A DNA stretch of 64,000 nucleotides from Schmidtea polychroa (taxonomy: Eukaryota): the NCBI GenBank assembly GCA_044892525.1, contig CM097886.1, positions 122,388,001 to 122,452,000 of the forward strand. Reading direction: 5' to 3'. Positions within the stretch are counted from its first letter, which is position 1, and each line of letters begins with the position of its first letter. Positions 18,401 to 45,129 of this stretch are shown here, piece by piece. Below the pieces are notes generated by a model. The model did no database searches and had not been told where the DNA came from. It worked only from the letters and a program-made list of their open reading frames with translations. The position numbers and the translations under genes were made by a program.

Positions 18401-19555
18401 TGCTTCGATCGTTTCCAGTATTTGTTCATTATTCCCGACCTTTAAAAGTTTGTGCAGCGGTGTATCTCCATAATGGTCTGTGATCGTAAATAATACAGGC
18501 CATTGACTTTTTACTACCCTGAGTAATGGGTGTGTTCTTTCTCGGTTTGCATAGTTTTCGATCATGGTTAGCAGACCTCCCAATATCTCAAAATCTAATC
18601 GGTCTTTTGCCCATCCGGGCATTTTAGCTTTCACTTCCTTTATGATTTTCTCGGCTTCTGATGGTCGTAACCCCAATCGGTTACCTGTTGGTTCGTTTAT
18701 CTGCTGTAACATATTTATTCTATATGTTTGTGATCTTGTTGTTAATGTTCGCCCTTCCGGCTGGCTGGTGGCTGTTTTCGGTATTGGCTTACATCGTGCC
18801 ACATTTACATATATTGGCCTCGTGAAGGGGTTGTTTACCAATCGTACTCTCACATTGGTTTCTCCGATGAATAGAATCTCATACGGACCTTTGCCGTTTC
18901 GTTGTAATTTTTTGGTGGTTCCTGGAATTAATTCCGGTGTTTCGATCATCACCCAATCACCGGTTTGAAATGTATGTTGTTTAACGTTTTTCTTTCTATC
19001 ATGCAGATCTTTGTAACTTTCCTGATAAAACTTTATATTTAATCCCGCAGTTTCCCAGATTTCTTGCATTCTTTCCTTGAACTTGGTTACATAATCGTCT
19101 ATTTCCATGTATTGTGATATTGGTGGCTGATATTCTAAATCCATTGGCATATTGCATTCTCTGCCGTACATCAACTTAAACGGACTCATCTTTGTGGACG
19201 CGTGAATCGACATTCTGTAAGCCATTAAACATAATTTTATATACTCGTCCCAGTCGCGTTGATGACGATCGACGTAATTTGATAACATTTGAATCAGTGT
19301 TCCATTGAATCTTTCTGTCATACCATTAGTTTGTGGATGGTACGGTGATGTTCTTAATTTTGCGATCTTGAAGTAGTTGGTGACTTCGCTCATTATTTCA
19401 CTCATGAAGTTTGTTCCTTGATCAGTTAATATCTGTTTTGGTGTTCCATATCGACAGCATATCTCCTCTACTAGTATTTTTGCGATTGTTCTTGCTTTCT
19501 GATCTGCCATAGCGAATGCTTCGGGGAATTTTGTCAAATAATCTGTGATTACCAA
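15470..19555 (-). CDS. Integrase catalytic core and GPY/F module fused to two ankyrin-repeat modules, a charged low-complexity region and a C-terminal membrane segment (1361 aa)
   Basis: TDQGTNF, YHPQTNGMTERFN, SPFKLMYGR, KGPYEI. Ankyrin motifs GDTPLH, GYTPLMIAA, KNALHHAI, RTPLQQAI, GETAMMYAA, GNSAMDWA. Hydrophobic MMIMILVLTMV and WISGIIITGAFLIITGG. Confidence 0.9.
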   Translation of the reverse strand: MVITDYLTKFPEAFAMADQKARTIAKILVEEICCRYGTPKQILTDQGTNFMSEIMSEVTNYFKIAKLRTSPYHPQTNGMTERFNGTLIQMLSNYVDRHQRDWDEYIKLCLMAYRMSIHASTKMSPFKLMYGRECNMPMDLEYQPPISQYMEIDDYVTKFKERMQEIWETAGLNIKFYQESYKDLHDRKKNVKQHTFQTGDWVMIETPELIPGTTKKLQRNGKGPYEILFIGETNVRVRLVNNPFTRPIYVNVARCKPIPKTATSQPEGRTLTTRSQTYRINMLQQINEPTGNRLGLRPSEAEKIIKEVKAKMPGWAKDRLDFEILGGLLTMIENYANRERTHPLLRVVKSQWPVLFTITDHYGDTPLHKLLKVGNNEQILETIEAFRDCNISTDQENNQGYTPLMIAANRDKAKDIIIALLETGSKITTQDHNQKNALHHAIEGKSTKAFIILVDLLSYEDNREIGNMYDGLLTAIKEKLITIAGLLIAWRNPIKNDYMVDINETFTKGENTLMREAMRGHHLFEIPNQLLQRGIKFSNHKDEQLIRKRITDFEKAISQFTDKVQVKFWETVSVLYMMENMNNIRETYLSIIQVLTAEERINSSNKKKIKIKKITVRKSEKRVDQIISDIATTSKPKIINSDQEIVIRKAKEVFFEEMQDLSDEAILAKITKTVHTYARDQTTNLDIGKIKAFIPLAFTLPTKDSRTPLQQAILAAKENRAITIIRILRDLGEESNAKNEQGETAMMYAAITKIHPKTLHILHQSGSRLDEISNEGNSAMDWATIQPNLEMIRFICKNATRTEVENICKNTSQFQWNTIRMSLEAMKLLLTWKIPQSNKYAININEFYENGVNAMVKNTLTKGGTPKIIMIVLNREDLKFTQNQNEQKRIGKHRRIQLRELVKEWNRKRHVATGRKEFEFEAKLARNRVLTAYRRLLNDINVEDDISNDSEGDKGDKDKDDKDDDNNEKGRNGNKEKEKSEENNQENNDASRKKEENNPRNRIKQEEKTNSGKQRVCLLFTNKEMETNMMIMILVLTMVEMITAQGGMRTIKEAKETENKDNKEEELKQEKKKQVQEQQWDLKEEWDLKERCILGRCMSRAYQRLVLKNEDAEPITEVGIQEAYQHRNGKKITKVKWKEVHLSKGGEIVITQLQPRKEHKVCISRLGPGENCLQYVTQQQPPKEYTVCILRNGPERECRRYPGKRGKKRKINDEKDEQGKRKKTGEKYQDNYVSEEEMEKIQKMAKEGMNEEIARIRGMIKGNGKDGNLKSTEAISTIMNKEKAEIISVKQMMWISGIIITGAFLIITGGTIKIIKDRRHRGELEMARIRNFQHHVKRPSNIKQEQWVEAWNAQRPPSSRI

Positions 19556-22498: not shown

Positions 22499-25400
22499 TC
22501 AATTTCTAAATCTGTCTAAAAATTTTGGTTTGTTCTTTTTCAGTTGTGTCCTTGTTGCTTCATCATACATTGTTTTCCGAAATCGTCTACCGACTTCCTC
22601 GTCAGTCCCTTTTATTTTTGTCAGTATTTTTATTAATCGTTTTATTCTGTGTATATCTTTAGAATGACCGTGCAACACCATTGTTTTTGCCAAAAATGGT
22701 AGAAAACCTACTATCAACTTCCAATTTACTTTCTTTTCTTTCTTATAGATATCAAAACACGCTAACATTTGAGTCAATATTACTCTGACAATCTGAATAA
22801 TTAAGATGATTCCCAATATTCCTGCCATCATTTGACCGAACACTAGAAATCTTCCCCACATTGCTTTCATCATGTTTGACGTGGCTTGTTGAAAATGATC
22901 GGGTGACAATAATAGTTCGTAATTGGGACCTGATTGGAAATTCGTTCCCCCAGTTATGGTAACCATATTTGATAGAATGGATTCTCGCCTTGCTGGGAAT
23001 AGTACGTTTAGTCGTGCCGTTTCTAAATCCTCTGCTGAGTACATACCTGCTTTTGACACATCAATTGGTTTGAAATCTTGCTCCGTTGCGAGTTCTATTA
23101 ATCCAAACTTTTTAGGCTCTTGTACTTCGGTTTTTACCGGTAACATTATCCATTTCCCATCGGGTTTTTCATATAACGGTCCGTATGCATTTGAACAGTT
23201 GAAGGTGTTCGGATAAAATCCAATTGGGTTCATAATTCTAGTGACGGGTTGAACGAATCTGTTTTGCCCTTTGTAACTAATTTCCAACTCGTTTGCGCAT
23301 TTCCCTGGTGGTATTGTGGGTTTTCTTGGCAGTCGCGCAAACGTCTTGGTACATGCATATGTATACATTACCTCTCCCACCATTCTACCAAAATGTCCAT
23401 CCGGTAACGGGAGTGATGGCATTGTGTTATCTGGGTGTGTTATTGCGATGGCTAATTTTGTTTTTAGTATCTCTTTATTCAATGAACAGTCATTTTGTAT
23501 AAGATCGTAGTATACTTTTTGCATTGTCGTTTGTCCTCGATGAAATAAAAAGTCCATTTTGTTGTTGGCATAAAGGTACAACTTCACGTCCTCCGTTGAT
23601 ACTTTTCCTACTGCTCGGTCTATTACTTGCCTTGACATGTAGATACCTGCGTAGTTCGTCCGATATACTATGCTGTCACATTTGGTGGTCTCTTTTTCTC
23701 TGATGAATCTCATACCGATATCTGGATCATCTGTAATTAATGCCGTTGGTGTTTTTTGTGTTGTGAGTCTCTTTTCTTTGGGGGATGGTGGAACTGGTTT
23801 CCCATTTCGCATCCTTACGTTTCCATTCTCTTCATCGTCATCTTCGTTTTCGTAAATTTCTCCTTTTACTTCATTGAATAGAGCACTTTTTAACAATTGG
23901 AGTCGGCATTTTTGGGTGTTAGCTTCATATATTATAGTCGAAATTCCCGTTCTACACACGTTTTCCGTAGCTCTGCATGCTGGGTTGGTTTTCATTTGAT
24001 AGTTGTTTGCGTCGAATTGTGCTTCGTATTCCTTCAACTCCAATGTGTAGGACTCAATTACTACTACTCCCGAGATCACTTCTCCTCTGATCGTATATGT
24101 GCCTCCGTTACATGATCCATCAGTTGATTTTACTCGTCCGGCTACATAGATACTTTCCGTCTTGATCATTCCGCTTTGTCCGTGTATTGTTACTCCATCC
24201 CTGATTCTCATCGCTCCGGTTCTAAAAAGCTCTTTACAGTCTTCCCGTTGTATAGGTACTATTTCTTTATCTAATCCAGGTAATATGAGGGTTGAATATG
24301 AGTATTGTCCACAGTAGTATGCCAACACTTTCTTCGATACTACGCATTCTCTAGCTTGCGTCCTAATGAAATCTGATTCTTGGTATACGTGATAGGAGAC
24401 TTTCTTTTTTACTATATCTAATTTATTCGGAGATGCCTGTCTACATTCCTCTATATCTCTCAGGGAGTATCTTTCTCCTATTATTGAATTGTCACAGTCG
24501 TAAATTGTAAATCCAGCTGCTCCACTGGTGCAGAGCATCCATATCATCATGGTCATCATTAGTGAATTAATCGACGCTTTTCTGCTGGCTGGGTCTTTCA
24601 ATGGCAATTCCCATTCCAGTTCGTTTAGCAATTTCTTCAACCGAATTTGCATCGATCTCTCTTGCTCGTTTTTTCGTGGCGCTTGTATGAGTCTTTTCCA
24701 CCCACCGGCACGGATAATATGTGGTTCGATTGTATTTTCAATGATTGTAACGGTCATTTCTACATGATTTGCGAATTGTTTGTTAGGTATTTTCCTTGCT
24801 GCTAATCCCATCAAATTGTACATTAGATACGTTAATACTACTAAATGATGTTCGTCGTCGTTTGCGTTTAAAGTTAATTGTTCAATTACCCTTCTTGTCT
24901 CTTCCCAATCGGTTTTAGTGGTTTTTGTCTTCTCTTTGATTAATTTCGGAATTATTCCGGATATTGTGTTCCATAGCTGTCTGGCATCTACGCTTGCTAC
25001 TTTTCGTTGCCATAACCGTCTCAATTGCGGGTTTGTTATTATTAACATATCCTTTACTAGCTCTCGTATCCATTTTTCACCTCTCTCGATTGTTGGTTGA
25101 GCCTCTTTTAGATCCCATACTATTTTATCCAATTTCTCTAATCTGACTTGTCCTTGTTCCTGTTTCAACTGTTCTCTGGTTTTAAATTCTGGTTTTTCTC
25201 CTTGCTTCTTGGGTCTTCCTTTTGCCCGTTTCTCCATCATTGTTCCAGCTTCTCTTGTCGTTTCATAATTCGGGTTTCTCTCGTTATCTGTTCTTGGCAA
25301 TGAGCTATCGTTGTTTCTCAGCCACTCATTCCATTCGTCTATTATTTTGTCCGTTTGACCTTCTGGTGTTGGTTTCGTCGGTCCTTTTGGTCGTTGGAAT

Positions 25401-27397
25401 TGTTCGTCGGTTTCGGTTTCTGTTGTATTATCGATAATTTCCTCTATGTTCAGCTTATTTGGTTGTTGATAGCTAGTTGACGGTTGGCTTGTTGTCCATA
25501 TTTCGGCTCCTGTCGGCCATCTTACCAGAATTGGTGATCTTTCTCCAGCTCCTTCATCGCTGTCTTCTAATATGATTTCCTCGATTTCCTCGGTTTCATT
25601 CGATTTACTCGCCACTTTGTTAGGGCTTGGTGTACTCAAGCTACCTTTCGTAGTTTTGCTGGATTTGCTCTTCCTTTTAATCGGTTTTCCCAATGTTTCT
25701 GCCATTGTCAATACATTGATCTCCCCCAATCTCATGGGTGTTATTCCGACATCTGCATTATCATCTAACGATTTTCCGAATAGTTGTAGGTGAAATGGAG
25801 TTTCGTATGCTAACTTCTTTTTTAACTCTCTGATCTTTGTTGTTGGATGTACTTTTATATCCTCAATGCTTTTGTCGGGATACTTGACTCGGATACGATA
25901 CCTTTCCTGGGTATCTTGTGCCCATTCTTGGTTTCTCCATTTCCTAATAATTTGTTCTAGCTGTTCTGGGTACCATTCGTTATATTGTCGGTATTCCTCA
26001 ATCGCTTTCGCCATTTCTCTTAGATTGTGGATATTCTCTGATGTCTTTAGGATGATGTTAGCCAATGCTACTACTTGTCGTTTTTGATTTTTTGCTCCCG
26101 TTGCTAAGATATCACCTAATTGTTTATATCTTTCCTTCTCTTCTCGTTCTCGAGCTTCCATCGCTTCTTCGCTGTCCATATCGGCATATTCGCGTTCTTT
26201 CTTTCTCATCGCATGAATATGTCTGGTTTCCGTTTCACTTTCTGACGTAACATCCGTTTCGCTTTCGTCGTCCGATATCGATTCTATTTCGTCCTCTTCG
26301 TATTTTGGAGGTTCATCTTCCTCTTCCTCTGATTCACTTTCTGTCTCACCAATCTCTGTTTCTACGAAAATTCCTTTCCTGACTTCCCACTCTTTATTTT
26401 CCGCATTCCACATCCTTTCCCAGGGAGTTCGTCTGCAAGATCTAGTACTTAGTTTCTTTATTTTTCCTTGTAGTTCCTTTTCCTTTAACCACTGTTGATG
26501 AATTTCAATTATCTCTACTGATTTTTTGTATAGCGTTTTCATCCTGTCTCGTATTTCTTTCTGGTATGTTACATCTCTTGTTCGGAATTCGTCCATGGGC
26601 AATATTCTGATGATTTGATGATTATCCCACATTCCCATTTCACTTAACGAGGTATCGTCTTCGGCCCGTAATATTATTTTGTCGTACATCATGACTACGT
26701 CATCTATCATACCATCACTACTCTCGCTTCGTACCTTTTCCGTTATCTCTTGGTTTATCTTTGTTACTAAGTCATCCACCGTACTCTGATTACTCATCTT
26801 TATTCGTCGTTTCTCCTCGTTTGGTAACCATATGGTTATTTCTAACTTCTGCGGTTGCGTTTCTTTTAATCTTCCATATTTGTGGATCAAATTTATGGTT
26901 CTCCAATCGCTCATCCTGAGCAATTCTGTATCTCGTAATCGGCTCATTAGTTCATGCATATCTGGAGTTCGTCTTGCTATGAGTAAATCCCAGTTATCTT
27001 CGACTTGTTCTTGAATTTGTTTGATTAGTTTATCTAGATTCCGCCTTAAAGTGCATTGTTTTATTTGTTCCAATTTCAGCTTGATATTGAAATCGTATTC
27101 AGCCTTGGCGTCTTTAGCCCATTCATGAACATTAGTTGGTTGCTTCTCTTTATGCAACTTCAATATTTGAGTTTCTCCTGGCCAGATCAATGCATCTATT
27201 AGGTGCATGTCTGGCTTAATTTGTTCTCCTTGGTATTGATATAAATACTCTTTCTTTCTCGAGCTGCCCAAATGTTCTCTTATCCAATCGAAAAGATCGT
27301 CTGTAACTGTATTTTTTATCCATATTCTCTCGAGTCCTTTACTCGTTCCGATTTTTATTACGTAGCGTGTTGTCTCCGCTTGTTTCATTTTTTCCAT
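22499..27397 (-). CDS. env: 1632-aa ORF: N-terminal accessory region (3 ubiquitin-like domains, Bcl-2-like domain), then signal peptide and chuvirus-like envelope glycoprotein with C-terminal TM
   Basis: Hydrophobic leader ending ...SGAAG|FTIYDC (mature start 24511). Cys pattern YDC...YSL.D..EC, YYCG..S, C..L..TG, AG....DG.C.GG.Y, VVV..Y.L resembles chuviral G. TM WGRFLVFGQMMAGILGIILIIQIV. BH2-like IEPHIIRAGGWKRLI at aa 890-904. Confidence 0.82.
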   Translation of the reverse strand: MEKMKQAETTRYVIKIGTSKGLERIWIKNTVTDDLFDWIREHLGSSRKKEYLYQYQGEQIKPDMHLIDALIWPGETQILKLHKEKQPTNVHEWAKDAKAEYDFNIKLKLEQIKQCTLRRNLDKLIKQIQEQVEDNWDLLIARRTPDMHELMSRLRDTELLRMSDWRTINLIHKYGRLKETQPQKLEITIWLPNEEKRRIKMSNQSTVDDLVTKINQEITEKVRSESSDGMIDDVVMMYDKIILRAEDDTSLSEMGMWDNHQIIRILPMDEFRTRDVTYQKEIRDRMKTLYKKSVEIIEIHQQWLKEKELQGKIKKLSTRSCRRTPWERMWNAENKEWEVRKGIFVETEIGETESESEEEEDEPPKYEEDEIESISDDESETDVTSESETETRHIHAMRKKEREYADMDSEEAMEAREREEKERYKQLGDILATGAKNQKRQVVALANIILKTSENIHNLREMAKAIEEYRQYNEWYPEQLEQIIRKWRNQEWAQDTQERYRIRVKYPDKSIEDIKVHPTTKIRELKKKLAYETPFHLQLFGKSLDDNADVGITPMRLGEINVLTMAETLGKPIKRKSKSSKTTKGSLSTPSPNKVASKSNETEEIEEIILEDSDEGAGERSPILVRWPTGAEIWTTSQPSTSYQQPNKLNIEEIIDNTTETETDEQFQRPKGPTKPTPEGQTDKIIDEWNEWLRNNDSSLPRTDNERNPNYETTREAGTMMEKRAKGRPKKQGEKPEFKTREQLKQEQGQVRLEKLDKIVWDLKEAQPTIERGEKWIRELVKDMLIITNPQLRRLWQRKVASVDARQLWNTISGIIPKLIKEKTKTTKTDWEETRRVIEQLTLNANDDEHHLVVLTYLMYNLMGLAARKIPNKQFANHVEMTVTIIENTIEPHIIRAGGWKRLIQAPRKNEQERSMQIRLKKLLNELEWELPLKDPASRKASINSLMMTMMIWMLCTSGAAGFTIYDCDNSIIGERYSLRDIEECRQASPNKLDIVKKKVSYHVYQESDFIRTQARECVVSKKVLAYYCGQYSYSTLILPGLDKEIVPIQREDCKELFRTGAMRIRDGVTIHGQSGMIKTESIYVAGRVKSTDGSCNGGTYTIRGEVISGVVVIESYTLELKEYEAQFDANNYQMKTNPACRATENVCRTGISTIIYEANTQKCRLQLLKSALFNEVKGEIYENEDDDEENGNVRMRNGKPVPPSPKEKRLTTQKTPTALITDDPDIGMRFIREKETTKCDSIVYRTNYAGIYMSRQVIDRAVGKVSTEDVKLYLYANNKMDFLFHRGQTTMQKVYYDLIQNDCSLNKEILKTKLAIAITHPDNTMPSLPLPDGHFGRMVGEVMYTYACTKTFARLPRKPTIPPGKCANELEISYKGQNRFVQPVTRIMNPIGFYPNTFNCSNAYGPLYEKPDGKWIMLPVKTEVQEPKKFGLIELATEQDFKPIDVSKAGMYSAEDLETARLNVLFPARRESILSNMVTITGGTNFQSGPNYELLLSPDHFQQATSNMMKAMWGRFLVFGQMMAGILGIILIIQIVRVILTQMLACFDIYKKEKKVNWKLIVGFLPFLAKTMVLHGHSKDIHRIKRLIKILTKIKGTDEEVGRRFRKTMYDEATRTQLKKNKPKFLDRFRN

Positions 27398-27442: not shown

Positions 27443-29368
27443 TTAGTTTCTTTCCAGTTTCATTATCTTTTGTATGAAGCGTCTGTATGGTATGATGTCA
27501 ATGAAATCCTGGTTTCTTACCACCACTGGAAGTATTTCTTTTACTTGTTTTATCGCCTCTTCTTTTTCCTTTCTCAGTTTCATCTCGATATTCTCATCTT
27601 CACTTTCGCTTGCCACATCGCTTTCACTTTTCTCCTCATCTTCTCCGATCTTTTTCTTTAGTTGTTCGATATTTTCATTTAACTGTAATATTTCTCCACC
27701 AAGGCTACTCACATAATCCTCCTCGTCATCTGTTGACAATACCTTCTTTGTCGTCCTCATCATGTTAATTCGTAAGTTTCTCATTCTTGATACTTTCTTG
27801 AGCTTTTTATTCTCAAATATCGTTAATTCTTCCGATTCTAATTCTTGTACCATTTCATGGGTTAAATGACTAGTTTGTTTCTCGTTTCCGTCATTTATCG
27901 CTTCTGCTTCTGTTTTTGTTTTCTCATGTTCTCTTTCGATCTTATCTTTTATCTTTTTCCAAAATATTTTCTGGATTCTCTGATTTCCCTTTAGTGGTGT
28001 TGTTGGATTTTTCTTTTTATCTTCTGTAACCGTTTCTTTCGGCTTCTCTGGTTCGATCATAGGTACAACTCTTGGATTTTTACCATAATTGTAACAATAT
28101 TGCTCCTTTATCTCTTTTACCATTCTCATCATATTTATTCGTAATGGTTGTTCTTGTCGCTGCTGAATTCGCTCTCGTTTTATTCTCTCTTCCTCAGCTT
28201 GTAGTCTCTGCCATTCTTGTGCATGTTGTTGTACTTCATAATTGTTAAGATTTTCGGTGCTCCTCATCATGCGTATATTCTGAGTTTGTTGTGGTACTTG
28301 TTCTTGTCTCGGTCTCATCATTTGTTGCATCATCTGTTTCATTTGTGAAATTTCTTGCATCACGTTCATTTGCTTTCCTTCACTGGGGTTACTTTGTCGT
28401 TGCGGATTAGGTGCATAATTATTGTTTCGTTGTGGTGGTCGTTGTTGTTGGCCCCTTTCTCGGCAATCTCTTGAGATGTGACCCGGTTGACCACAGTTAA
28501 AACATCCTCTCAATTGACATATATTTTCCGTGTGTCCTCGTCGTCCACACCTATTGCAATTTGCGCTTCGGTAACAATCTCTATCCCAATGTCCTGGTTT
28601 ACCGCATGTTCGGCATTGTTTGTTATCGTTCGTATTTCGTCGATTATTAAAATTATTTCCATTGTTCGAGTTGTTGCGTTCACTGTTATTCCCGTTTGAT
28701 CGTCCTTGCGGTGGTTTGAAAATTTGATGCGCACCTGGTATAAACTGATTCATCTTCGGTTCATGATTGTTGTTATCTCCATTTTCTGTTTTCGCCGTAG
28801 CTGCTGCGATTCTTCCCTCCTCTTGCATGACATTCATTTGTGCCGGGAGGTGTTGATCGCATCTTGTGGCCCAATCTATGGCCTCTTCTAGTGTTTTACA
28901 CATCTGACATCCCACCGAGGCTCTTACCTCTTCCCGGCGTAGTCCTTCTATGAAATAACCAATTAAATTTTCCTCTGGCAGGTTTCCGTTCATGGCCTTC
29001 TTTGCCAATCTTCGCAATTCGCTTGCGTATAACGTTATTGATTCATTTGCTCTTTGTTTTCTACTCGCTAATTCTCCTAGGGCTTGATTTATTGGTTTGC
29101 TGGCCCCGAATGTTTTTCTCAAAAATGTTTTGATGTTTTCCCAATTGTCTAATTTCGTATTTCTTTCTTTTGCTTCTAGATACACTTCGAGTGCGCTATC
29201 GCACAAAAACAGAGGCATTCGTTTACTAATTGCTTCCGCTGTCCATCCGCACACATCGATATAGACTTCAAAATTTGTTATGAACGTTGCCAACTTGTTC
29301 GCATTCCCGTTAAACGGTTCGCCTCTAAATTTTTCTTTATACTCGTCGGTTTTTACCACATTCATCAT
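27443..29368 (-). CDS. gag: Gag: retrotransposon capsid domain, three CCHC zinc knuckles, long Q/K/E-rich extension (641 aa)
   Basis: Capsid-like FITNFE...WENIKTFLRKTF...Q..NESITLY..ELRRLA...FIEGL; knuckles CRTCGKPGHWDRDC, CNRCGRRGHTENIC, CFNCGQPGHISRDC. Confidence 0.92.
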   Translation of the reverse strand: MMNVVKTDEYKEKFRGEPFNGNANKLATFITNFEVYIDVCGWTAEAISKRMPLFLCDSALEVYLEAKERNTKLDNWENIKTFLRKTFGASKPINQALGELASRKQRANESITLYASELRRLAKKAMNGNLPEENLIGYFIEGLRREEVRASVGCQMCKTLEEAIDWATRCDQHLPAQMNVMQEEGRIAAATAKTENGDNNNHEPKMNQFIPGAHQIFKPPQGRSNGNNSERNNSNNGNNFNNRRNTNDNKQCRTCGKPGHWDRDCYRSANCNRCGRRGHTENICQLRGCFNCGQPGHISRDCRERGQQQRPPQRNNNYAPNPQRQSNPSEGKQMNVMQEISQMKQMMQQMMRPRQEQVPQQTQNIRMMRSTENLNNYEVQQHAQEWQRLQAEEERIKRERIQQRQEQPLRINMMRMVKEIKEQYCYNYGKNPRVVPMIEPEKPKETVTEDKKKNPTTPLKGNQRIQKIFWKKIKDKIEREHEKTKTEAEAINDGNEKQTSHLTHEMVQELESEELTIFENKKLKKVSRMRNLRINMMRTTKKVLSTDDEEDYVSSLGGEILQLNENIEQLKKKIGEDEEKSESDVASESEDENIEMKLRKEKEEAIKQVKEILPVVVRNQDFIDIIPYRRFIQKIMKLERN

Positions 29369-31642: not shown

Positions 31643-32122
31643 TTAACTGAAGTAAATCGTGTGCTTCTCCTTTATTGCACATACACATAAAGAACAATGC
31701 GTTAAACTGACGGCGCATTCGTCGCAATGGCTAAGGTGTCCACAAGGTAGCATTAGAATTCTGGCAGGTCGCGTCTTACAAATGTTACAAGTTCTCAAGG
31801 CCGCTGCTTTTTCTATTATCGAGGTTCGTATTCTCTGAGATAGAGTTTTTACTTGTTCGCGTATTCTCACATATTCGAGGTTCAGAGCGGGGTCGTCGAG
31901 TCGTTGCTGCATCCATTGGTAATGGACAGACAAGTCGGTGTCGGTATTTGTTGACCCCAATCTGTCGGTTAGAAAGTTTTGTTTGGATATCAGCGGTGCG
32001 TTGTGGCGTTGTTGCTCTAGGGTTTCTATTTGTTGCAGTTTTTCTCTTAACGTCTTTATGGAATCGTTTTCTATGTCGACGAACCGGCTTAGTCGTTGTA
32101 GATGTTTCCTAGCTTCTGACAT
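31643..32122 (-). CDS. LTR-encoded coiled-coil plus C-terminal IAP-type C3HC4 RING protein (no BIR domain)
   Basis: CNIC......ILMLPCGH..HCDEC...L..CSLC...I....IYFS* follows the IAP/zf-C3HC4_3 RING spacing and terminal aromatic tail. The acceptor-like ttttgtag lies 2 nt before the ATG. Confidence 0.85.
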   Translation of the reverse strand: MSEARKHLQRLSRFVDIENDSIKTLREKLQQIETLEQQRHNAPLISKQNFLTDRLGSTNTDTDLSVHYQWMQQRLDDPALNLEYVRIREQVKTLSQRIRTSIIEKAAALRTCNICKTRPARILMLPCGHLSHCDECAVSLTHCSLCVCAIKEKHTIYFS

Positions 32123-32708
32123 ATCTACAAAAGTATGTTGTCATTACTCGGTCTCACTTATAAAAATAAAAATAATATTATCGTGTTATAATCAATGTTC
32201 GTTTGGCTTTGTTCGCTATTGTTTCTAGTTTATGTATTTTATTCAATCTCTAATAATTCTTTTTTAATTTAATTCATTTAAAATTAAACAAAATTAGTCA
32301 ATTCCCATTTTCTCTTCTCTTCATATTCAATCACATTCATTCAAACTTATTTAGGTTCGTTTTTGTTCATAGCATGTTCTATTTTACGCAAAGACAGTTC
32401 GCATCATCATCTTAATACACTATAATATCAATTCATTTCAGTCCCGATTCCCTTTTTTTATTATAATTAATTAAATTGTTAGTCTAACACATCGTAATAC
32501 AGTAATAGGCAATCAAACAATTCGAAATCACAATCCCGGCTGAGCCCCCAAAAATCATGTTGGCGTATGTGGGGAAAGAGAAAATATGCCCACCTGATCA
32601 TCATACATCCCAAGTACTCTCTTCCGCTCCGATACTTCCCATACATACTCCAAAATGATCAAATACATATTCCCACGTATGAGCCCGTGGGGGTGTTCCA
32701 CGTTGGTG

Positions 32709-32810
32709 CTGCTCACACGGGTTGGAAAAGGTTAGCAGGTGAGCCCCTGCCTTAGGACTACTCCTAACCCTTTCTCGGTTCGGGTTCCATGGTGCCATAG
32801 AAGGTCTTAC
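32709..32810 (-). ncRNA. Conserved ~102-nt structured, intron-like element (GTAAG...CTCAC/CTAAC...CAG) in the LTR
   Basis: Homologues at 9731-9832, 44883-44984, 49984-50086, 56811-56915, 57193-57301 and 62429-62531. The hairpin around the GCTCAC loop shows compensatory changes. Confidence 0.5.
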
Positions 32811-33100
32811 CCGTTTCTTCGCTCCTAATTCAGTCCAACCCTGGTCCAAAGGGACGACATTTGCGCTCGTACTATGTCTCCAAGAGCACCTTTTACTCAA
32901 ATCAACCACAGCAAATCACACATACCATGAAAAAAAAAATCAAAGACTTCAAACAGTTGTATTAAATCGAAACATAAAAATACATTCACCATTAATTAAA
33001 TAAGAACAAAACATCAAAGGTCATGTACAGGATAACGTCAACTTCTCCGAGTTCCTTCATACCGCACAAAGATTGAGACAAATGAGAAAAAAGGAATTCA

Positions 33101-33865
33101 TTACGAAAACACTTCTCCTTCTGCGATCATTTCGTCAATGTCGACGGGCAACCGGCGATCTTCGAGGAATTTGATGCCGTCGGCCGGAACTAACCGAAAT
33201 ACTTCTTTCGTAGGGATAGAATGGGTGATTGTAATTTCCTTGATCGTCGATTTGGCTGCAGATAACGATGCCTCGAGCGCGGCCATGGCGTTTCTGCGCT
33301 TCTGATTTTTCTCTGAGCGCGTCGGTCTCTTACGCTTTCGAGGTGGAAGAGTGGCTCCTGCTGGAGGCCGGGTGAGTGGCGACGCGAGGACTGGAGCCAA
33401 GATAGGGTCCGATGGACCGCCAGCCATAGGCCGATAGCCAGAAAGAACTGGGGCGGGAATTGGTGGCAATTGTAGGCCGTGCCCCTTGCAACTGATGGTT
33501 GATGAGGTTTCAGTGGATTGATGGTGTTCCGGGAACACGTTAGTCCCATCTTGTATTGGGTATTCGCGAACTCGCTTCGCTATCTCGGATTCCGAATATA
33601 CTTTGTGCAGTGCCTCTGATTGGGCTTTTATGGTTAGCCTCTGGCATCTGCTCTCCTCGAGGAGACTGTCACGGCAGTGCTCCAAACGTAGAATTTTTCT
33701 CTTCTCTTCCTTCATTTGTGGCGGGGAGAACCACGTGCCTTCGTAAAGGTCGATTCTTTTCTTTAAAGCCCCGATGTATAGATGAAGCTGCGCGATATCT
33801 GCGTTTTTATCTGCGCAGGAGAAACATGGGCGAAGAGTTTTCTCAGCAGTTGTTGGAGTAGTCAT
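33101..33865 (-). CDS. LTR-encoded hypothetical protein (254 aa; CxxC, coiled coil, Pro-rich linker, basic NLS-like motif)
   Basis: Intact ORF homologous to 8672-9433. Nine of the 22 codons of LHLYIGALKKRIDLYEGTWFSP differ synonymously between copies, with no amino-acid change. Confidence 0.85.
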   Translation of the reverse strand: MTTPTTAEKTLRPCFSCADKNADIAQLHLYIGALKKRIDLYEGTWFSPPQMKEEKRKILRLEHCRDSLLEESRCQRLTIKAQSEALHKVYSESEIAKRVREYPIQDGTNVFPEHHQSTETSSTISCKGHGLQLPPIPAPVLSGYRPMAGGPSDPILAPVLASPLTRPPAGATLPPRKRKRPTRSEKNQKRRNAMAALEASLSAAKSTIKEITITHSIPTKEVFRLVPADGIKFLEDRRLPVDIDEMIAEGEVFS

Positions 33866-36284
33866 CTAAAGAATGAGAAGCCCTTTATTTACATCATTAA
33901 AATCCTTTCTACTATTTGTTTTCTTTTTATCGTGAGCTTTATCCTGCCACATGTGCATACAATCAGGATTGTCCCCCACATCCATACCTTTGACCTCACT
34001 TAACTCATCCAAACCGTAAACCTTCAAATCAACTCATCATATCGTTCGTAAGGAAGAAAAAAATGAGAACCATCACACGTTATTTCTCTACCCATATTGA
34101 TATTGTACCTAGGTTCCTGGGTCGACAGTTATCATCTAATCGCAATCAGTTACTCCTTACCACTAATATATTTTTCCACTTTTATTTATTATGACCCATT
34201 GAAAGTGTGTCTACTCCCTTGCTATTATGGCTTATTGAGTTATGCCTGCTTTAATTTAAAAGAAGTAGTTCCATGCTGTTGATGCATTTTTGCGCTGTGT
34301 TAGGTTAAAACGAATGTGTTAAAAATTATTGTAAGTATTAATTTCCCCCATAAATTATAATTTAATTATTTAAATTTTCGCATTTTATGTTGTCATAACG
34401 ACGCATATTAGTATGTAGTTGTGTACTGGTTTCAGACTCTACCTGATGTGCGCTAATGTGTATTATTTAGTTTTACTCAATTATCGCTGTCCTCTCTTAG
34501 CAAATTCTAGACATTGTGTCGGTTAGTGTACTTGATCTCGTCGCTTATTTATGCATGCCTACGGACACATGCTACTATGACGCAATGATGACGTCGACTC
34601 ACTCACGTCCCATGTATTAGTGGATTTATCTGTGTGTGGGTTTGGGTCTGCTTATCTCAGTTATAACATTATTAGCAGATGGGCTAGACGAACGGAAGAT
34701 AAGGAGTCAGACTTATAGAAATAACGATGGTTATGATTTCAAGATGGCCTAAATCTGTTATCGGGTAGCAAATGGATTTAATTTCTATCTCTCTCGTGAA
34801 TGTTGACTATTCTCAAAAACCTAATCGTTTCATCGACTTGGCGCAAATCGTTCCACAATCGAACCGCTGGAATATTTTATCTACGCTACTTGCCTCTCTG
34901 CAATAGTCGTTTCTCGATCAGATGGAAAATTTATTGATAATTTGTTCGGAATGGTCGATGAAAATTTCCTTTAGGACTGTAGTAAGTGCTTATGATTAAT
35001 TAGAACTTTGCTGTTTACTTTCCTGTCAGGACGAATCCTTATCGATGACAGTAGCTAATCGAAGGTTGATAACTAAGTCTCCTACTCGTCAAATAACATA
35101 TCACCGCGATGGGTTGAATCGCTAACGTTCTCTTAATTTATCAATTCTTGGAAATATAGAATGCTCCAGATTTTTATCATTCATCAAGAAAACGAAAATG
35201 GACGTTAGAATTATCAGTGAGGTTCGAGAATTTCATTACCCTCAAGGATAGTCGGTGTTCATATTCTGACGAAAAGAAGTCACCTAGCTCTAAATTGAAT
35301 ATGGCCGAACTCAAACTCGGATTAAATATCGAAAAATGTCGTCAATCTCCTAGAATTTTCAGTCAGCACGTTGTCGGCATCGAAACAGTATCGCTCAGAA
35401 GTTTCCTCAATCGAAAGTTTGCGACGGCTAATTCTACAGATAGCACTCGATGAAAGGATCATTGACTCGATTCGTTTTCTCTCACAGGGTTTCCTCACCC
35501 CTCACAACCCACCCAAGGACAGTACGCATTTCTGCCCACTGCCCTTGGACCGTCGTGAAGGACAACTCGACCCGACTTATCTCAAATCCTCCTCCAATAA
35601 ATGTGCAATTAATAAATTCATATATGATCAAACAAATATGGGAATAATGAAATTAAAAGAAAAATCAAATAAATAAATGTTTACCTGGCGGCCACGCCAG
35701 CCGGATTCCGGGTATGATGACTCTTGCTAACGTAGGTTTTTACATTCATTTAGCAATCATTGTAATACTAATATCCATGTAGATACTTGGCTGGTTCGGT
35801 CAGTGCAATTTCTGAGTATTCATATTCATAAGCTCTCTCTGAAAATGCATACGTAATTTAGCCGCATCATACCCGAGCTCCAGAGGACGTCGTCGCCAGC
35901 ATCATAGAGAGAAAGCAACATCTTTTGGTTTTAAATATAAATTTTATTGAAACATAAAACGTCTTTTGATATTAAATTCATAATAAACATTAAAAATATC
36001 ATACTAAAATTCAAAACATAATTTACCAAAATTCTCCGAAGGTGTTAGGATTGAAATCAAAGTCTTGTAAATTTTTCCTTAGTTAGCCTGGTTCTTCTCA
36101 ACTGGATTCGATCTCGACTATTATCTGCCTCTAAGTAATATCTGTTATGTCCAAGTATGAATATTGTTCGTAAGTCTGTGCTCGTGAGTGGTTCCTAGCT
36201 TAGTCCTGTAGAGTTTCGGGTTAGAATGATAATTTTAAATAAATTTTACCTGTAGAGTTTCGGGTTAGAATGATACTCTACAGA

Positions 36285-36330
36285 GTTTTGTTGCTCTTTA
36301 TATATATTTTTCCGTCCAATCAGGACACAC
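36285..36330 (-). promoter_or_regulatory. Putative LTR promoter (ATTGG/CCAAT box, then TATA), ~480 bp inside the 5' end of LTR A
   Basis: gtgtcctgattggacgg...tatatataaagag. The same layout occurs in copy B (6310-6340), C (54661-54696), D (58315-58352) and E (59264-59288). Confidence 0.6.
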
Positions 36331-38664
36331 CTTGCTTGTAATTTTGTTATTTATTATTATTTTATGTTTTTTCTTATCGTAGTATATTATATTTTAATGA
36401 CCCTACCTATTTCTATTATTGTTTTATTTATTTTCCTATTTTTTATTATTTTTCTCCTATTTTTCTGTGGTTTTATTGCTATTTTATTGTAACTTCATTT
36501 TTTGTTTTAATTAACCTTATGGATGATTTTATTTTTATTTTGTTTTCCTTTAGTTTTCGTTTGTTTTTCTTAAATTTTGTGCCATTTTATTTCTCTTTTA
36601 CTGTTGTGCTCATTGGGTGCCTTCCCTTTTGTCTTATTTCCCCTTTACAGGTTTTGTTATTTTATTTAGTTATTCTTGTTTCTTTATGGATGTTTAATTT
36701 GTTTCTTCCTATGTTTCTCGTAATTTTTATATGTTTTTATTTTATTTACTCTATCTCTTCCTGGGTTCGTTTTTCCAACACCTTCAGAGCTTGGCCCAAC
36801 AAAAAGTAGTTTGTAGGTGTAGTCTTTTGGGTGTTAAAATTACCAGAATTTGTAACAAAAATACTAAAAGCAGACAAACAAAGGTAAATTAAATAAGAAA
36901 CATTAGAAAAATGAGTACAGAAAGGAGAAAACAATTGTGCGGTAGCGAGGGAAATGCGAATAGTGAAAATGCTGACCGGAAGACTGTAAAAGTAAAAGAT
37001 TTTACCCACACGTAACCATCAGTAAATAACAAAATAAAGACTCTGTCAATTTGAAATTATTATATGTGTAGTCCTTTAGTCATATTGCTGGGTTAAAAAC
37101 CAAGGACAGTTTTATATCCTGTAACCTTTCTTGTTCCCACCGAAAGGCCACTAAGATGACCACACAACATGGAAAAAGCAATAAGAACCAATCGGAACCA
37201 ATTTTTCTACCCCTAGATTTTTATTTCTATTAGATCTACCATAATTTAGTGTAAGCACATCGGAAATTTTATGTTAGAAGATGAGTGAACATTAAAAATC
37301 TTAAGGCTAAAATGCTACATGATAGTGAAAGAAAAATATAGGGTAAACATACAAATACAGAACAGGAGTGATTCGAGAACTTGAAGATGATTTCAGAACA
37401 GTTTTTAACCTATTAACAATTTGATGTGATCCATTAACTTATTTATTTGTGATACAAGATTGTAATTATATTTATTTATTGGTTCTTGGTGATATTATAA
37501 TAAAGTAAACCCTCACACGCAAAAATGGAAAAATATCTGGATATATGTCAGAGATAAGGCTGACATAGAGAAAAGGAAAATGGAAAACTGAATCTGTCGC
37601 CAGTGCCGCAAATGAAACAGACTATATAAAACAGAACAGTTGACCGAGAAATCAGAACAAAAAGTAAAACAAAAACAGAACGAAATCAGAGACGAAAAGA
37701 GTAAAAAAGGAGACACAAAAACAGAGTGAAACGAGAAGTGACGAGAATAGTTTGTAAAATTGAACATAAAGTGGAAGTGGAGAAAATAAATTGTGTGGTC
37801 AAAGCAAATAGAACAATCGATCAACGTATCCTGTAATTAAATAGTTGATGGATAGTGATTATTGTTGTGATTACAGAAAGGGCTATTCTTCACGTAGTGT
37901 CGAAATAAGCTCTATGTGATAAATTGGTTTATAATTAATTGGTTGTAATTGAAATTTGTACAATCCCGTGTGGATATTAATAAAGCCTATCGTGTTCGAG
38001 AGTGTTGAATTGTGAATTAATAAACACGCTTTGGAGTCAAATATTATCACCAACCCAATAACCCAACAGTATTATTTATTTGTTATTATTATATTTTATT
38101 AATTTTAAGACAGATTGGAGTGCATGTTATTATTTTTAGACATATTTGTTCAAACAGGTTAGCAATAAGTGCATTTATTGGAAGATTGTTTATTTTATTT
38201 TTTTGAAAATTTTAATTGAACCATTAAAAATTTAATTTTGATTTTTACAATAATTTTCATGTTGATATTGAAGATTGTAAAATGTATTTATATAAACTAT
38301 TCATATTTATAGTATTTATATTTAATCATTTGAATGTTGTTGGTGAATTATGAACTCAATGCGCGTCTGTGTGCGCGTTGTATTGTGTGATGGGTTTGTG
38401 TGCGCACACAGACGCGAGCAATGTCATTTTTTGGGTTGGGTTGTTGGTGTGTCGCGTCTGTGTGCGCTTTTCTTTTCTTTGTTTTAGGCTGTGTGCGCAC
38501 ACAGACGCGAGCAAGAAGTATGGAAATATTTATTAATTAGTTTGGTTGTAATTTTTTTCTAATTTTAGAGTTAGAATTTTATCGATTCTTGAATGTGAAT
38601 GGATTTAGAGAGTTGTTAATGGTATCGATTTCGGTTTTGGTTTTCTTATGATTTTTCGGATAAA

Positions 38665-40978: not shown

Positions 40979-43900
40979 TGTTGGGCCAAGCTTCGAGAGT
41001 ATTGCAAATCAGGTTAAGGATGAATAAAGGGGGTAAAATAAATTTCACGAAAAGCGCGAAAAATAAAAGAACAAATAAAATTAGATGAACATAACAGGAA
41101 TAAAGGGAATAAAAATAACTAATGAAAATAATAAAAAATGAAAAATAAGATGAAAAAGAAAATAACGCACCACACATAATAGCAGAAGGAAATAAAATAA
41201 TAAATTTAAGGAAAATAAACCAGAAATTAGGAAATAAAATAAAAATAAATCATTATCAACTAAATACATAAACTAATTAAAATCAAAAATTATACTACAA
41301 CCAAAAAACAATAAAGTCACAGGAAAAACACGAGGGAAATATTAAAAAATAGAAAAATAAATAAAATAATAAGAAAAAAATAAGAAAAGTTATTAAAATA
41401 CCCCATATTACATTAAAAAACATAAAAACAATAATAAATAATAATATTACACACCAGTCGTGTCCTGATTGGACGAAAAATAATATAAAAGAAATGAAAA
41501 ATATCTGTAGAGTACCATTTAACCAAACTGCTCTACAAGTAAAAATTTCTTTATTGAACTTACCATTTAACCAAACTGCTCTACAGATCTACGATTCATA
41601 CAGGAACCACTTATCAAACGTCATTGAACAGATTTACAGGGACTACATTTAGGAAAATTATTCAGATAGCGATCGGAATTTAGGCAGAATAACAGTACAC
41701 TTAACTTGGAGAAAAAATCTAGACCTTATTTTCAGTACTCTCGGAGAAAATTATAGTAAGTAAGATGAATGTGTTTGATTTATGATTGATTTACGTAACC
41801 ATGATTAAGTAACATATTTTATTTTTAATAAAAATTTATTGATTACAAAGATGTTCTCTCTCTATGGCTGGCGACGACGTTGTTTGGGAATCGGACATGA
41901 TGCGGAGACTCGGATGCCTTTTGCAAGGAAATGCTTGGGAGCGAACGAAAATAAACGAAGATGTTGAATCAAGTATTTGAAGGAAATTAATCTCACTGGG
42001 AATGAAATGGTAATATGCGATGAATATCACGATGTAGCATCATGTTCGAGATACAGACGGCGTGGTCGCCAGGTAACTAATTTCTCTAGCAATATTAATC
42101 CATTTTGTAAACTATATGATTTATTTTTTCGTTTGATAATCGTTCATGATATTGAGGTTTGGAGAGATAAAATCGTCCTTCCTGACGGTCCAAGAATGGT
42201 GGCAGAGATGTATGCCGTTCTTGGGTGAGTCAGGAAGGGTGAGGACATCTGGTAGACGATGACAATGGAATTGGGAGGAACCTTTTCGCCGGGTGAGATC
42301 ATTTACTCTCGAGGATTCTCTTCATAAAGGCATAATAGTCATTCATCTCGGTAGAAGGAGAAATACCATAGGAAGTGCTAGGAAAAACTACTTACGACCA
42401 AGCATGTCTGCGAATTCAATCGTTTTCCAATGAGTTTCGTCACTTTTCGACGCTGATGGACGAGCTATCACTAAAACCATTTGAATGATAGAAGACTAGG
42501 TTTGGCTTGAAAATATCCATGAGGATCGTCGTTGCTTTCTTAAGAGTAAAATCCTTTAGAGGTGCACACCGCTAAGACGTTAGCTGGTAGATCGATCACT
42601 CCAATTTTCCTTTTATCCGATTAGAGAGAAATCGGTAAACAAACGTCGAAAAACTGTCATCATCGTCAACTCGTTCGCCTAGTGTAAATACGCGCGACAG
42701 TCTTGAGAAAAACCTGGAATCGACCGATCGTTGGAAATTTATCCTACAATCTGATTCTCCTACAATCGAACGGTAGTTATTAGATAAGCCATTTTCTAAA
42801 AATACCCAGTTTTAGATTAACGGATAACAACTTCTTCATAAAGGCGTTCATCGCCGACTATCGGAGTAAATATGGCTAATAGGAGAACAATCACGGAGTT
42901 GGGGTTGAGTCGATCAACGTGGTGAATATCCAAAAATTAGAACATTGATATCATAATTCACATATAGAGTTTTGCTTTCATCCACATAAAATCCAACAAC
43001 AATATTACGTGCGACGGCAGATAATTTTGCTAATACACACCTGTACATCTACTAACTCCCAGACGAAGTGTAAAGTGATGACGTCATTTAGGACCACACT
43101 GAAACAATAGGTAGTAAACTGAGTAACGATGTTACGACAAGAATCGGATAGGGAAAATCTCTTACTAGCAGATTTTGTTTCCCACTACGATTGCATAGGG
43201 TCTAACTATAATAAATTCCAGCATGCACTTTCGAATCATAGCGAAGAACAGCGGTTTTCTATGACTACTCACACGGCGGTAAATTAAATTAGATTATTTC
43301 ACTATTAAATATTTAATATAACTAGAATTTTCCTTACGATTTAAAAAGTGCCCATCTAATTCAACACCAGACACGTCGAGCGATAATCATAAAATTTCTT
43401 GGGATTTAAATAACATACAATTTCCCGTAAGCTACATAGTTGAATAATCACCATATAACTAATGCAAGGATGATGTTAATGATGATAAATGATTTTTAAA
43501 TTTTTCGAAAAACATGCAGTTTGCCTGAATTAGGAGATAAATAAAAGAAGTATTTATCAAGTTTCCAATAGTCAGAATATTGCTAATACAGCGAATATAC
43601 GCTTGTTATGGGTCCCGCTCCTTTTCCCTAGCTTGTATGATTTGCGTTGAGTGAACAGGTTCGTGGTGGTAAATAATATTCCGTATGTTTACAATCCGTC
43701 GAAGCTTTTCTGAGGGTCGTCGAGCTATATGTCGAGGGTGTTACCATGATTTCACGAGAGATCCGTCAACGAATGCACAAATAATTTTCTGGTAAACTTA
43801 ATAGGAACCTTCTTTATCTTTAGATGACTGCACCGATCAAATCAGGAAAGGATTTGCGCCCATGCTTCTCGTGCTCGGACAAAAACGAAGATATTAGGAA

Positions 43901-45129
43901 GTTGCATCTCTACATCGGGGCCTTGAAGAAGCGCATAGACCTTTATGAAGGCACGTGGTTTTCCCCGCCACAAATGAAGGAGGAGCGAAACAAGATATTA
44001 AGACTGGAGCACTGCCGTGACAGTCTCCTCGAGGAAAGCAGGTGCCAGAGGCTCACGATAAAAGCCCAATCAGAGGCCTTGCATAAGATATACACGGACG
44101 TCGAAATTTCAAAGCGAGTTCGGGAATATCCGATCCAGGACGGAACAAACGTGTTTCCAATTCACCATCAAATGTCCGTAGCCCCATCGACAACCAACTG
44201 CAAAGGACATGGCTCCCAATTATCTCCTATTCTCGCTCCGTCTCTCTCAAGTGCCAGGCCCCCAACACAAGGCCCATCGGACCCCATTTTAGCTCCAGTA
44301 CTGCAGCCTCATTCGACTCAACCAGCGGTCAACCTCGCGTCATCGAATCGGAAACGCAAGTGGCCGACGCGCGCCGAGAAAAATCAAAAACGCAGGGATG
44401 CCATCGCTGCGCTGGAAGCTTCGTTATCAGTGGCCCAGTCCACCATCAAAGAGATCTCGAATTCTCACGTGATTCCGGCCAAAGAAATATTCCGAGTAAT
44501 TCCGGCCGATGGTATCAAATATCTCGCGGATCGCCGATTACCTGTGGATATCGACGAAGTATTCACCGACGGAGAAGTTTTCTGATCAGTCAAGCCAACG
44601 ACAATACCTATTTCTTGCTCTCGATAGACCTACCGACTAACCCTCTGGTGTAAAATAACTTATCTGTAGTTTGCTTGTTATTTTAGTAAACATTGGTGTA
44701 ACATGTTTTGTTTTTGGTAATAGATGTATGTAATGTAAACAATATAATTTCTTGGGATTAGATGATTTGTTTGCGAGAAGGATAAGTGAAATAAACGGAT
44801 TGGATGATAAACTGAAAATGTGTCATTGAATGAAGGTCGTCCCTTTGGACCAGGGTCGGACCAGGTATAAGTGTAGAAAGGGGTAAGTCCTTCTAAGGCA
44901 CCGTGGAATCCGAACTGAGAAGGGGTTAGGAGTAGTCCTAAGGCAGGGGCTCACCTGCTAACCTCTTCCGACCTGTGCGGGCAGCACCAACGTGGAACAT
45001 CACCACGGGCTCACACGCGGGAATATTAGCAAGATCATCTGGGGTATGGCGGGGAATGGCCTGAGAGGAACGAGGATGATTCGTATGTTTGGTAATGATG
45101 TTAATCTTTTTCCCCTGCATAACCCAACA
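40979..45129 (+). mobile_element. Solo LTR copy B' (duplicate of B)
   Basis: Same termini and ttag TSD (40975-40978 and 45130-45133). Confidence 0.92.
43824..44585 (+). CDS. LTR-encoded hypothetical protein (253 aa), duplicate
   Basis: Same translation as 8672-9433; preceded by the acceptor-like tctttag|ATG. Confidence 0.85.
   Translation: MTAPIKSGKDLRPCFSCSDKNEDIRKLHLYIGALKKRIDLYEGTWFSPPQMKEERNKILRLEHCRDSLLEESRCQRLTIKAQSEALHKIYTDVEISKRVREYPIQDGTNVFPIHHQMSVAPSTTNCKGHGSQLSPILAPSLSSARPPTQGPSDPILAPVLQPHSTQPAVNLASSNRKRKWPTRAEKNQKRRDAIAALEASLSVAQSTIKEISNSHVIPAKEIFRVIPADGIKYLADRRLPVDIDEVFTDGEVF

What the first reader, a model, noticed from the sequence alone, without database searches (positions are those of the whole stretch)
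33101..33865. Unknown ~254-aa LTR-encoded protein under purifying selection
Seen in sequence: intact in LTR A and B/B', disrupted in E, remnant in C and F. Nine synonymous and no non-synonymous differences over one 22-codon block between A and B, while their A-rich LTR ends barely align. Features are CFSC, a coiled coil, a second Cys pair, a Pro/Ser linker and RKRK...RxEKNQKRR. Inference: a nuclear regulatory protein (possible transactivator or RNA-binding factor) of an unrecognised family.
Basis: partly seen in the sequence, partly recalled or inferred. Interest (0 to 1): 0.72.

Follow-up and report, generated by a model that had tools for sequence, protein, structure and literature searches.

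The report
Regulatory gene hidden inside retrotransposon LTRs
A giant planarian-type retrotransposon carries, inside both of its terminal repeats, a strongly conserved 254-amino-acid gene with no detectable relative, which is likely read from a spliced message and likely encodes a nuclear switch that boosts the element's own RNA output.

Summary
Confirmed and extended. The ORF (33101-33865, minus) is a real gene inside the 4.24-kb LTR (36801 to 32558) of a Burro-type giant gypsy element. It occurs in at least five LTR subfamilies as distant as 31-46% identity and in both LTRs of young full-length copies. dN/dS is 0.15 overall, 0.07 in the core and 0.06 in the basic helix. No homologue was found by sequence, profile or fold search. 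New here is its position: about 2.4 kb downstream of the LTR's CCAAT/TATA promoter, so in R-U5 rather than U3. It has an ATG-poor leader, a conserved donor, and a splice acceptor at the start codon (49 of 50 copies). Each LTR, solo ones included, therefore looks like a complete spliced gene. The protein has a Cys/His helical hairpin, a basic helix and an acidic LxxLL-like tail. Best reading: a Tas-like activator of the element's own promoter (0.45). Main rival: a Rev/CERV-like genomic-RNA export factor (0.28). Expression was not shown, and two primary Burro papers could not be read.

The parts
33101..33865 (-). LTR ORF, 254 aa: C-x-x-C (14-17), predicted helical hairpin (15-42, 49-101) with H63-C64, F-P-x-H-H and C126-x-x-H, Pro/Ser linker, basic helix (175-204), acidic tail (236-254)
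32558..36801 (-). 5' LTR (LTR A), 4244 bp, TG...CA; the element is bounded by a TTTT target-site duplication
36297..36323 (-). CCAAT box (36316-36323) and TATA box; same pair 310-500 nt from the LTR start in all 15 LTRs compared
36206..36275 (-). 26-nt direct repeat starting at TATA+31 around a 44-nt GT...AG micro-intron; inferred mark of the RNA 5' end
36021..36030 (-). Conserved splice donor D2 (GT at 36026) ending an ATG-free leader
35943..35948 (-). AATAAA followed by a pyrimidine-rich tract; likely R/U5 poly(A) signal
   Evidence: inferred
35679..35688 (-). Further donor-like site shared by LTR A and B
33866..33885 (-). Pyrimidine tract and AG directly before the start codon (splice acceptor, inferred)
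32662..32822 (-). RNA structure conserved across subfamilies, with compensatory changes; donor-like GTAAG at 32810
32533..32550 (-). Primer-binding site complementary to the host tRNA-Pro 3' end
31643..32122 (-). RING ORF (159 aa) of the element
27443..29368 (-). gag (Retrotrans_gag, CCHC)
22499..27397 (-). Polyprotein part with weak Bcl-2 match and Monjiviricetes-type fusion glycoprotein (env-like)
19422..21911 (-). RT, RNase H, integrase zinc domain
15470..19510 (-). Integrase core end plus ankyrin repeats
13464..14852 (-). TRAF-like ORF (RING + MATH)
5827..9977 (+). Solo LTR B (TSD TTAG) inside a small gypsy element; intact ORF 8672-9433; its acceptor reads TTGAG
40979..45129 (+). LTR B', duplicate of B; intact ORF 43824-44585
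61409..62140 (+). Broken ORF copy (E subfamily) in an LTR at about 59039-62670
55938..56399 (+). C-terminal remnant (C subfamily) in an LTR starting about 54310
49479..49735 (+). Internally deleted remnant of a fifth, old subfamily (H)
1..1650 (-). Start of the element's 3' LTR; it continues left of the window and holds a 99.6% identical ORF copy (L003)

Best explanation
The ORF is a conserved gene of a Burro-type giant gypsy retroelement, lying downstream of the LTR promoter, and it likely encodes a Tas-like nuclear activator of the element's own transcription. Shown: location inside both LTRs, purifying selection, conserved promoter, donor and acceptor motifs, and three constrained protein modules. 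Inferred steps: RNA starts about 30 nt after TATA; a short ATG-free leader is spliced from donor D2 across the poly(A) signal to the acceptor at the start codon, making this the first (early) product of the 5' LTR or of any solo LTR. The Cys/His helical core likely binds zinc and oligomerises, the basic helix likely imports the protein and binds LTR DNA or nascent RNA, and the acidic LxxLL-like tail likely recruits co-activators, giving positive feedback on full-length RNA.
For: dN/dS 0.150 over 28 natural intact copies of three subfamilies; core 0.069, basic helix 0.060, tail 0.110, linker 0.418; 2dL=1927 against dN/dS=1. 133 of the 149 best genomic matches have no internal stop, and 23 pairs lie 26.1-26.7 kb apart (counted from the table). 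CCAAT+TATA 1.7-2.65 kb upstream of the ATG in 14 of 14 LTRs with a locatable ATG. YYYAG directly before ATG in 49 of 50 A/B copies versus 1 of 140 background ATGs, and an acceptor-like AG 5-18 nt upstream in 20 of 21 E/G copies. 11 ATGs before D2 in 19 LTRs versus 55 expected (LTRs are related, not independent). A hydrophobic-x-x-hydrophobic-hydrophobic acidic motif ends the protein in all five subfamilies. 6 of 9 G copies pass the published acidic activation-domain rule, only at the tail (rule from PMC10550315, passages). Size and layout recall bovine foamy Tas: 249 aa, N-terminal binding and dimer region, C-terminal activation domain (PMC4929722, passages).
Against: The window protein and its subfamily fail the activation-domain rule: 0 of 11 A/B, 0 of 8 E, 0 of 4 C, and 0 of 32 under the stricter rule. 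U3 is short, 51-60% A, and shares no G/C-containing 7-mer across all four subfamilies compared, so no obvious DNA target. The clearest conserved cis element is an RNA structure, which favours the rival. No transcript or splice joint was observed, and no intron-less copy joining leader to ORF was found among 150 loci. No homology to any known activator.
Confidence: 0.45

Rival explanations
1. Rev/CERV-like export or splicing regulator. Genomic RNA must keep the LTR intron and its conserved splice sites, because R-U5 has to be reverse transcribed. Default splicing would make this protein, which would bind the structured RNA at the LTR end through its basic helix, oligomerise, and license export of unspliced RNA.
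For: Conserved donors and acceptor. RNA structure with 18 of 29 pairs changed on both sides, 94.6% of cells paired versus 35-46% when slid. Basic helix as constrained as the core. Precedent in a nematode LTR retrotransposon: CERV comes from a spliced mRNA, has a helix-hairpin zipper, Cys loop and basic NLS, and is needed for genomic-RNA export (PMC10309623, abstract and sections 9, 15).
Against: No leucine-rich export pattern (classes recalled) is conserved across subfamilies. The acidic tail fits an activation motif better. The RNA structure may simply be the packaging or priming signal. The structure was derived from the same alignment it was scored on.
Confidence: 0.28
2. Anti-silencing factor. 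The protein would bind LTR chromatin and counter PIWI/H3K9me3 silencing rather than activate directly.
For: Burro elements are up-regulated on loss of SMEDWI-2 (PMC8532177, passages). The G subfamily has a conserved (I/V)-D-L-T motif resembling a SUMO-interaction motif (resemblance recalled).
Against: That motif is absent from the other subfamilies; no similarity to chromatin factors.
Confidence: 0.12
3. Host-manipulating adaptor (apoptosis, ubiquitin or cell cycle), like the element's RING, TRAF, Bcl-2-like and ankyrin parts, with no direct role in the element's RNA.
For: The element carries several such modules (PMC6431247 section 7). The tail of the oldest subfamily resembles a paxillin-type LD motif (resemblance recalled).
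Against: The other modules are recognisable host captures in the internal region; this one has no host relative found, sits behind the promoter, and has a nucleic-acid-type basic helix.
Confidence: 0.1
4. Not a functional protein: an open frame kept by copy recency or by a DNA/RNA constraint.
For: No expression was shown.
Against: Differences concentrate at third positions. The pairwise dN/dS ratio falls from 0.48 for near-identical copies to 0.08-0.11 for distant ones. Neighbouring LTR sequence is unalignable while the frame persists.
Confidence: 0.02

Closest known systems
Burro / GYPSM1 giant gypsy elements of Schmidtea mediterranea (PMC6431247 section 7)
   Same: About 30.5 kb; gag, Bcl-2-like, env between gag and pol, RT-RH-IN, ankyrin, TRAF/MATH, RING; accessory ORFs
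   Different: The section read mentions no ORF inside the LTR (its figure could not be seen). Here MATH/TRAF is a separate 3' ORF and no BIR was found, so this is not Burro1 as described.
Foamy virus Tas (BTas; PMC4929722, PMC3185757 passages)
   Same: About 250 aa, N-terminal structured/dimer region, C-terminal acidic region; donor upstream of the poly(A) signal as in foamy LTRs (PMC3694450 abstract)
   Different: No homology found; Tas is expressed from an internal promoter in env, not from within R-U5; activation is untested here
CERV of C. elegans Cer1 (PMC10309623) and HIV Rev
   Same: Extra protein from a spliced RNA of an LTR element; helical hairpin with heptads, Cys residues, basic NLS-like stretch
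   Different: CERV is 517 aa with M and G domains and shares exons with gag; this protein is 254 aa, wholly LTR-encoded, with no conserved export motif
MMTV superantigen and other U3-located ORFs (recalled; PMC4667437 seen as listing only)
   Same: Protein-coding frame duplicated in both LTRs
   Different: Those lie upstream of the promoter (U3) and are read from the 3' LTR; this one lies downstream of TATA and could be read from a single LTR
Additional ORFs of plant gypsy elements (Grande, RIRE2, Retand; PMC7264820, part 1 of 3)
   Same: Conserved accessory ORFs of unknown function
   Different: Internal, mostly antisense between pol and the 3' LTR

Membership tests
Burro-type giant gypsy (host element) | Retrotrans_gag + CCHC, RT-RH-IN | tested here: met
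Burro-type giant gypsy (host element) | env-like fusion protein between Bcl-2-like region and pol | tested here: met
   PF24664 E 4e-72; Bcl-2 only E 0.02
Burro-type giant gypsy (host element) | MATH/TRAF, RING and ankyrin modules | tested here: met
Burro-type giant gypsy (host element) | total length above 30 kb with LTRs | tested here: met
   LTR pairs 26.1-26.7 kb apart plus 4.2-kb LTR
Burro1 / GYPSM1 in the strict sense | BIR domain, and MATH inside the polyprotein | tested here: not met
   no BIR hit in the ORFs scanned; MATH is a separate ORF
Named Burro-2/-3/-4 | sequence identity to the published references | not testable with these tools
   references and the primary paper were not held
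Foamy Tas-type transactivators | sequence or fold homology | tested here: inconclusive
   no significant hit in Pfam, PDB or viral structures
Foamy Tas-type transactivators | C-terminal acidic activation domain | tested here: inconclusive
   rule passed by 6 of 9 G copies, 0 of 23 others
Foamy Tas-type transactivators | sequence-specific binding to LTR DNA and activation | not testable with these tools
   needs ChIP/EMSA/reporter
Foamy Tas-type transactivators | gene 3' of env under an internal promoter | tested here: not met
   the gene lies inside the LTR
Rev/Rex/CERV-type export factors | made from a spliced RNA | tested here: inconclusive
   signals conserved; no joint observed
Rev/Rex/CERV-type export factors | leucine-rich export signal | tested here: not met
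   no pattern shared by all subfamilies (patterns recalled)
Rev/Rex/CERV-type export factors | structured response element in unspliced RNA | tested here: inconclusive
   covarying structure present, partner unknown; no Rfam match
Rev/Rex/CERV-type export factors | direct sequence comparison with CERV | not tested
   no CERV sequence was fetched
U3-encoded LTR ORFs (MMTV sag type) | ORF upstream of the promoter | tested here: not met
   ORF is 1.7-2.65 kb downstream of CCAAT/TATA; start site inferred, not mapped

The most novel reading that the evidence does not exclude
Burro elements are invertebrate complex-retrovirus-like elements whose LTR is itself a complete intron-containing gene for a trans-acting nuclear regulator of a new protein family. 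Every intact solo LTR in the genome would be a stand-alone cassette able to make it, and it would act in trans on many LTR promoters and nearby host genes in planarian cells.
Probability: 0.25. Interest if true: 0.85.

Novelty: new variant of a known kind. Interest (0 to 1): 0.63.

Why it matters
LTR-borne genes known to me (recalled) sit in U3 or run antisense. A spliced gene downstream of the LTR promoter means a roughly 3.7-kb R-U5 must be reverse transcribed as strong-stop DNA, and solo LTRs are not inert. It would give an invertebrate gypsy element a dedicated regulator like those of complex retroviruses. Burro1 is reported to support planarian stem cells and regeneration (seen only as cited in PMC13465017), so what switches these elements on is an open question; this gene is a single, RNAi-accessible candidate.

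Tried and rejected
Homologue searches were all blank: 5.8-billion protein set with the single protein, the 32-sequence alignment and longer proteins (shorter forms not searched); 1.84 billion representatives, 0 at E 0.001; Pfam; PDB sequences; protein atlas, best 0.84 and 0.87, leads only; metagenome and viral contigs. These libraries may simply lack planarian repeats.

Fold searches gave only generic helical hairpins; models were of modest confidence (pLDDT 60.6 and 65.4, pTM 0.36 and 0.34). The complex predictor was not available, so dimerisation and zinc binding are untested.

RNA: no RNA holder was listed. Contigs of six runs were laid; the one run covering the ORF also covers U3 and intron and parallels a run of unknown kind, and no joint fits the predicted splice, so no verdict.

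A search for intron-less LTR copies found two pattern matches that are unrelated sequence, and shortened LTRs whose breaks are not at donors. Loss of the micro-intron in some LTRs (L168, L126) is not proof of splicing, since recombination between the repeats gives the same product. The short frame near 49480 is a deletion of an old full-length subfamily, not a mini-gene family. Rfam has no match to the 3' structure. Earlier scan findings: none.

Literature searches listed no paper that, by title or the passages read, describes this ORF. Grohme 2018 and Lee 2026, with their supplements, and Repbase were not readable and may mention it.

Full report
**1. Observation.** The ORF at 33101-33865 (minus) gives 254 aa. 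Intact relatives lie at 8672-9433 and 43824-44585 (73.5% identical), a broken one at 61409-62140, and remnants at 55938-56399 and about 49480. B and B' are one copy duplicated within a 15-kb repeat.

**2. The element.** Downstream on the same strand lie RING, gag, Bcl-2-like/env, RT-RNase H-integrase, ankyrin and TRAF ORFs. This matches the Burro giant gypsy elements of planarians (PMC6431247, section 7 read). The genome has 781 Mb in four large contigs; a Schmidtea planarian is inferred. LTR A runs 36801 to 32558, TG...CA, with TTTT target duplication at the element's outer ends and a primer-binding site matching host tRNA-Pro. A genome search scored 149 of 7007 first-look candidates: 79-100% identity, 133 without internal stops, 23 pairs 26.1-26.7 kb apart (counted from the table, biased to the best matches). 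Paired LTRs of two such elements are 100% and 99.98% identical, so the gene is in both LTRs of recently active copies. Searches with the window's divergent copies uncovered five subfamilies (A/B, E, G, C, H), 31-46% identical to the window protein for full-length E, G and C members. G elements have the same internal layout, 75-81% identical in DNA.

**3. Selection.** Nei-Gojobori A versus B': dN 0.18, dS about 2.7 (near saturation), ratio 0.067. Over 51 distinct intact ORFs the pairwise ratio falls from 0.48 (dS under 0.03) to 0.08-0.11 (dS over 0.3), as expected if selection acts during replication and copies decay after insertion. A codon model on 28 intact copies gives 0.150 (2dL 1927 against 1); core 0.069, linker 0.418, basic helix 0.060, tail 0.110. 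Broken copies were left out, which lowers the estimate somewhat.

**4. Where in the LTR.** All 15 LTRs compared begin with 250-520 nt of A-rich sequence ending in CCAAT and TATA. The ATG is 1.7-2.65 kb further on. A short direct repeat around a GT...AG micro-intron starts at TATA+28 to +33 in 20 of 30 rows, where a start site is expected. A second donor follows, with an ATG-poor leader before it (11 observed, 55 expected, 19 related LTRs), then an A(A/T)TAAA with a pyrimidine tract in most LTRs. A donor upstream of the poly(A) signal is the foamy-virus arrangement (PMC3694450, abstract). YYYAG abuts the ATG in 49 of 50 A/B copies against 1 of 140 background ATGs; 20 of 21 E/G copies have an acceptor-like AG 5-18 nt upstream. 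Poly(A)-like signals follow the stop in several subfamilies, but A has no canonical one. The ORF is therefore downstream of the promoter, in U5 or a long R, and is probably the second or third exon of an LTR-contained mRNA. This is inferred from motifs; the RNA data gave no verdict and no processed copy was found.

**5. The protein.** Near-invariant: C14-F-x-C17, T44-W-F-x-P, H63-C-R-D, H87, F111-P-x-H-H, C126, R183-x-E185, R191. The model gives confident helices 15-42, 49-101 and 183-214, a disordered linker and a short tail helix 243-249. Helix 1 has an I/L heptad (24, 27, 31, 34, 38, 41; read from the sequence). Fold matches are generic hairpins. The tail motif persists from D-I-D-E-M-I (A) to E-L-D-A-L-L (H). 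The published activation-domain rule (PMC10550315, passages) passes 6 of 9 G tails and none of 23 others; that paper says the rule has a high false-negative rate. No export-signal pattern is shared across subfamilies. No homologue was found anywhere.

**6. Mechanism.** A regulator of the element's own RNA is most likely (about 0.75-0.85 for the first three readings together). I favour a Tas-like activator (0.45): basic helix, oligomer-type core and terminal acidic motif, at the size and order of bovine foamy Tas (PMC4929722, passages). Against it, U3 shows no conserved target and the A tail is weakly acidic. A Rev/CERV-like export factor (0.28) fits the need to keep the LTR intron in genomic RNA, the covarying RNA structure at 32662-32822 and the CERV precedent (PMC10309623, abstract and sections 9, 15), but lacks an export motif. 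Anti-silencing (0.12) and host-adaptor (0.10) roles remain. Zinc binding, dimerisation, localisation and activity are all untested.

**7. Novelty.** The element is known; the gene belongs to no family found, and its place behind the LTR promoter differs from U3-located and internal accessory ORFs (PMC7264820, part 1; MMTV recalled). Seven literature searches listed nothing that describes it in what I read, but Grohme 2018, Lee 2026, their supplements, Repbase and the review's figure were not visible, so prior mention is possible. Verdict: new variant of a known kind, interest 0.63.

Noticed in passing
window 36206-36275 (-); L165, L170, L171, L183, L041 and others: A 17-30-nt direct repeat starts at TATA+28 to +33 and flanks a 44-56-nt GT...AG micro-intron; the copies match within an LTR but differ between subfamilies (20 of the 30 rows; the rest are single-copy LTRs or spurious promoter calls). 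Likely cause: 5' R spliced, 3' R unspliced, so minus-strand transfer copies one repeat onto the other each cycle.
   Followed up: partly
window 1651-12445 and 36802-47597: 10.8 kb of the element's upstream flank is duplicated (99.94%) into its interior just before the 3' LTR, replacing about 2 kb of the internal 3' end. A repair event or an assembly artefact; not resolved.
   Followed up: partly
window 32662-32822 (-): Covarying two-domain RNA structure with invariant unpaired motifs at the LTR 3' end in all subfamilies; no Rfam match; packaging signal, response element or ribozyme untested.
   Followed up: partly
window 3125-11776 (+) and 38276-46928: Small decayed gypsy element with about 200-bp LTRs; its left LTR is interrupted by a proteasome-subunit fragment (3514-4059, PF00227), and solo LTR B is inserted in its pol.
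   Followed up: no
L188:4320-6951: Intact G-type elements carry three more ORFs (351, 250, 222 aa) between TRAF and the 3' LTR, without a convincing Pfam family; the last looks like a small membrane protein.
   Followed up: no
G000:C1:130901009-130952345 (L190): Large tandem array of tRNA-Pro(TGG) genes with a 475-bp period, the primer tRNA of this element; 1555 pattern matches genome-wide.
   Followed up: no
window 30639-31069: 74-bp tandem repeats between the RING ORF and gag.
   Followed up: no
window 8667-8671 versus 43819-43823: LTR B has TTGAG where B' and 48 other copies have a YYYAG acceptor, one of the few differences between the duplicated stretches.
   Followed up: yes
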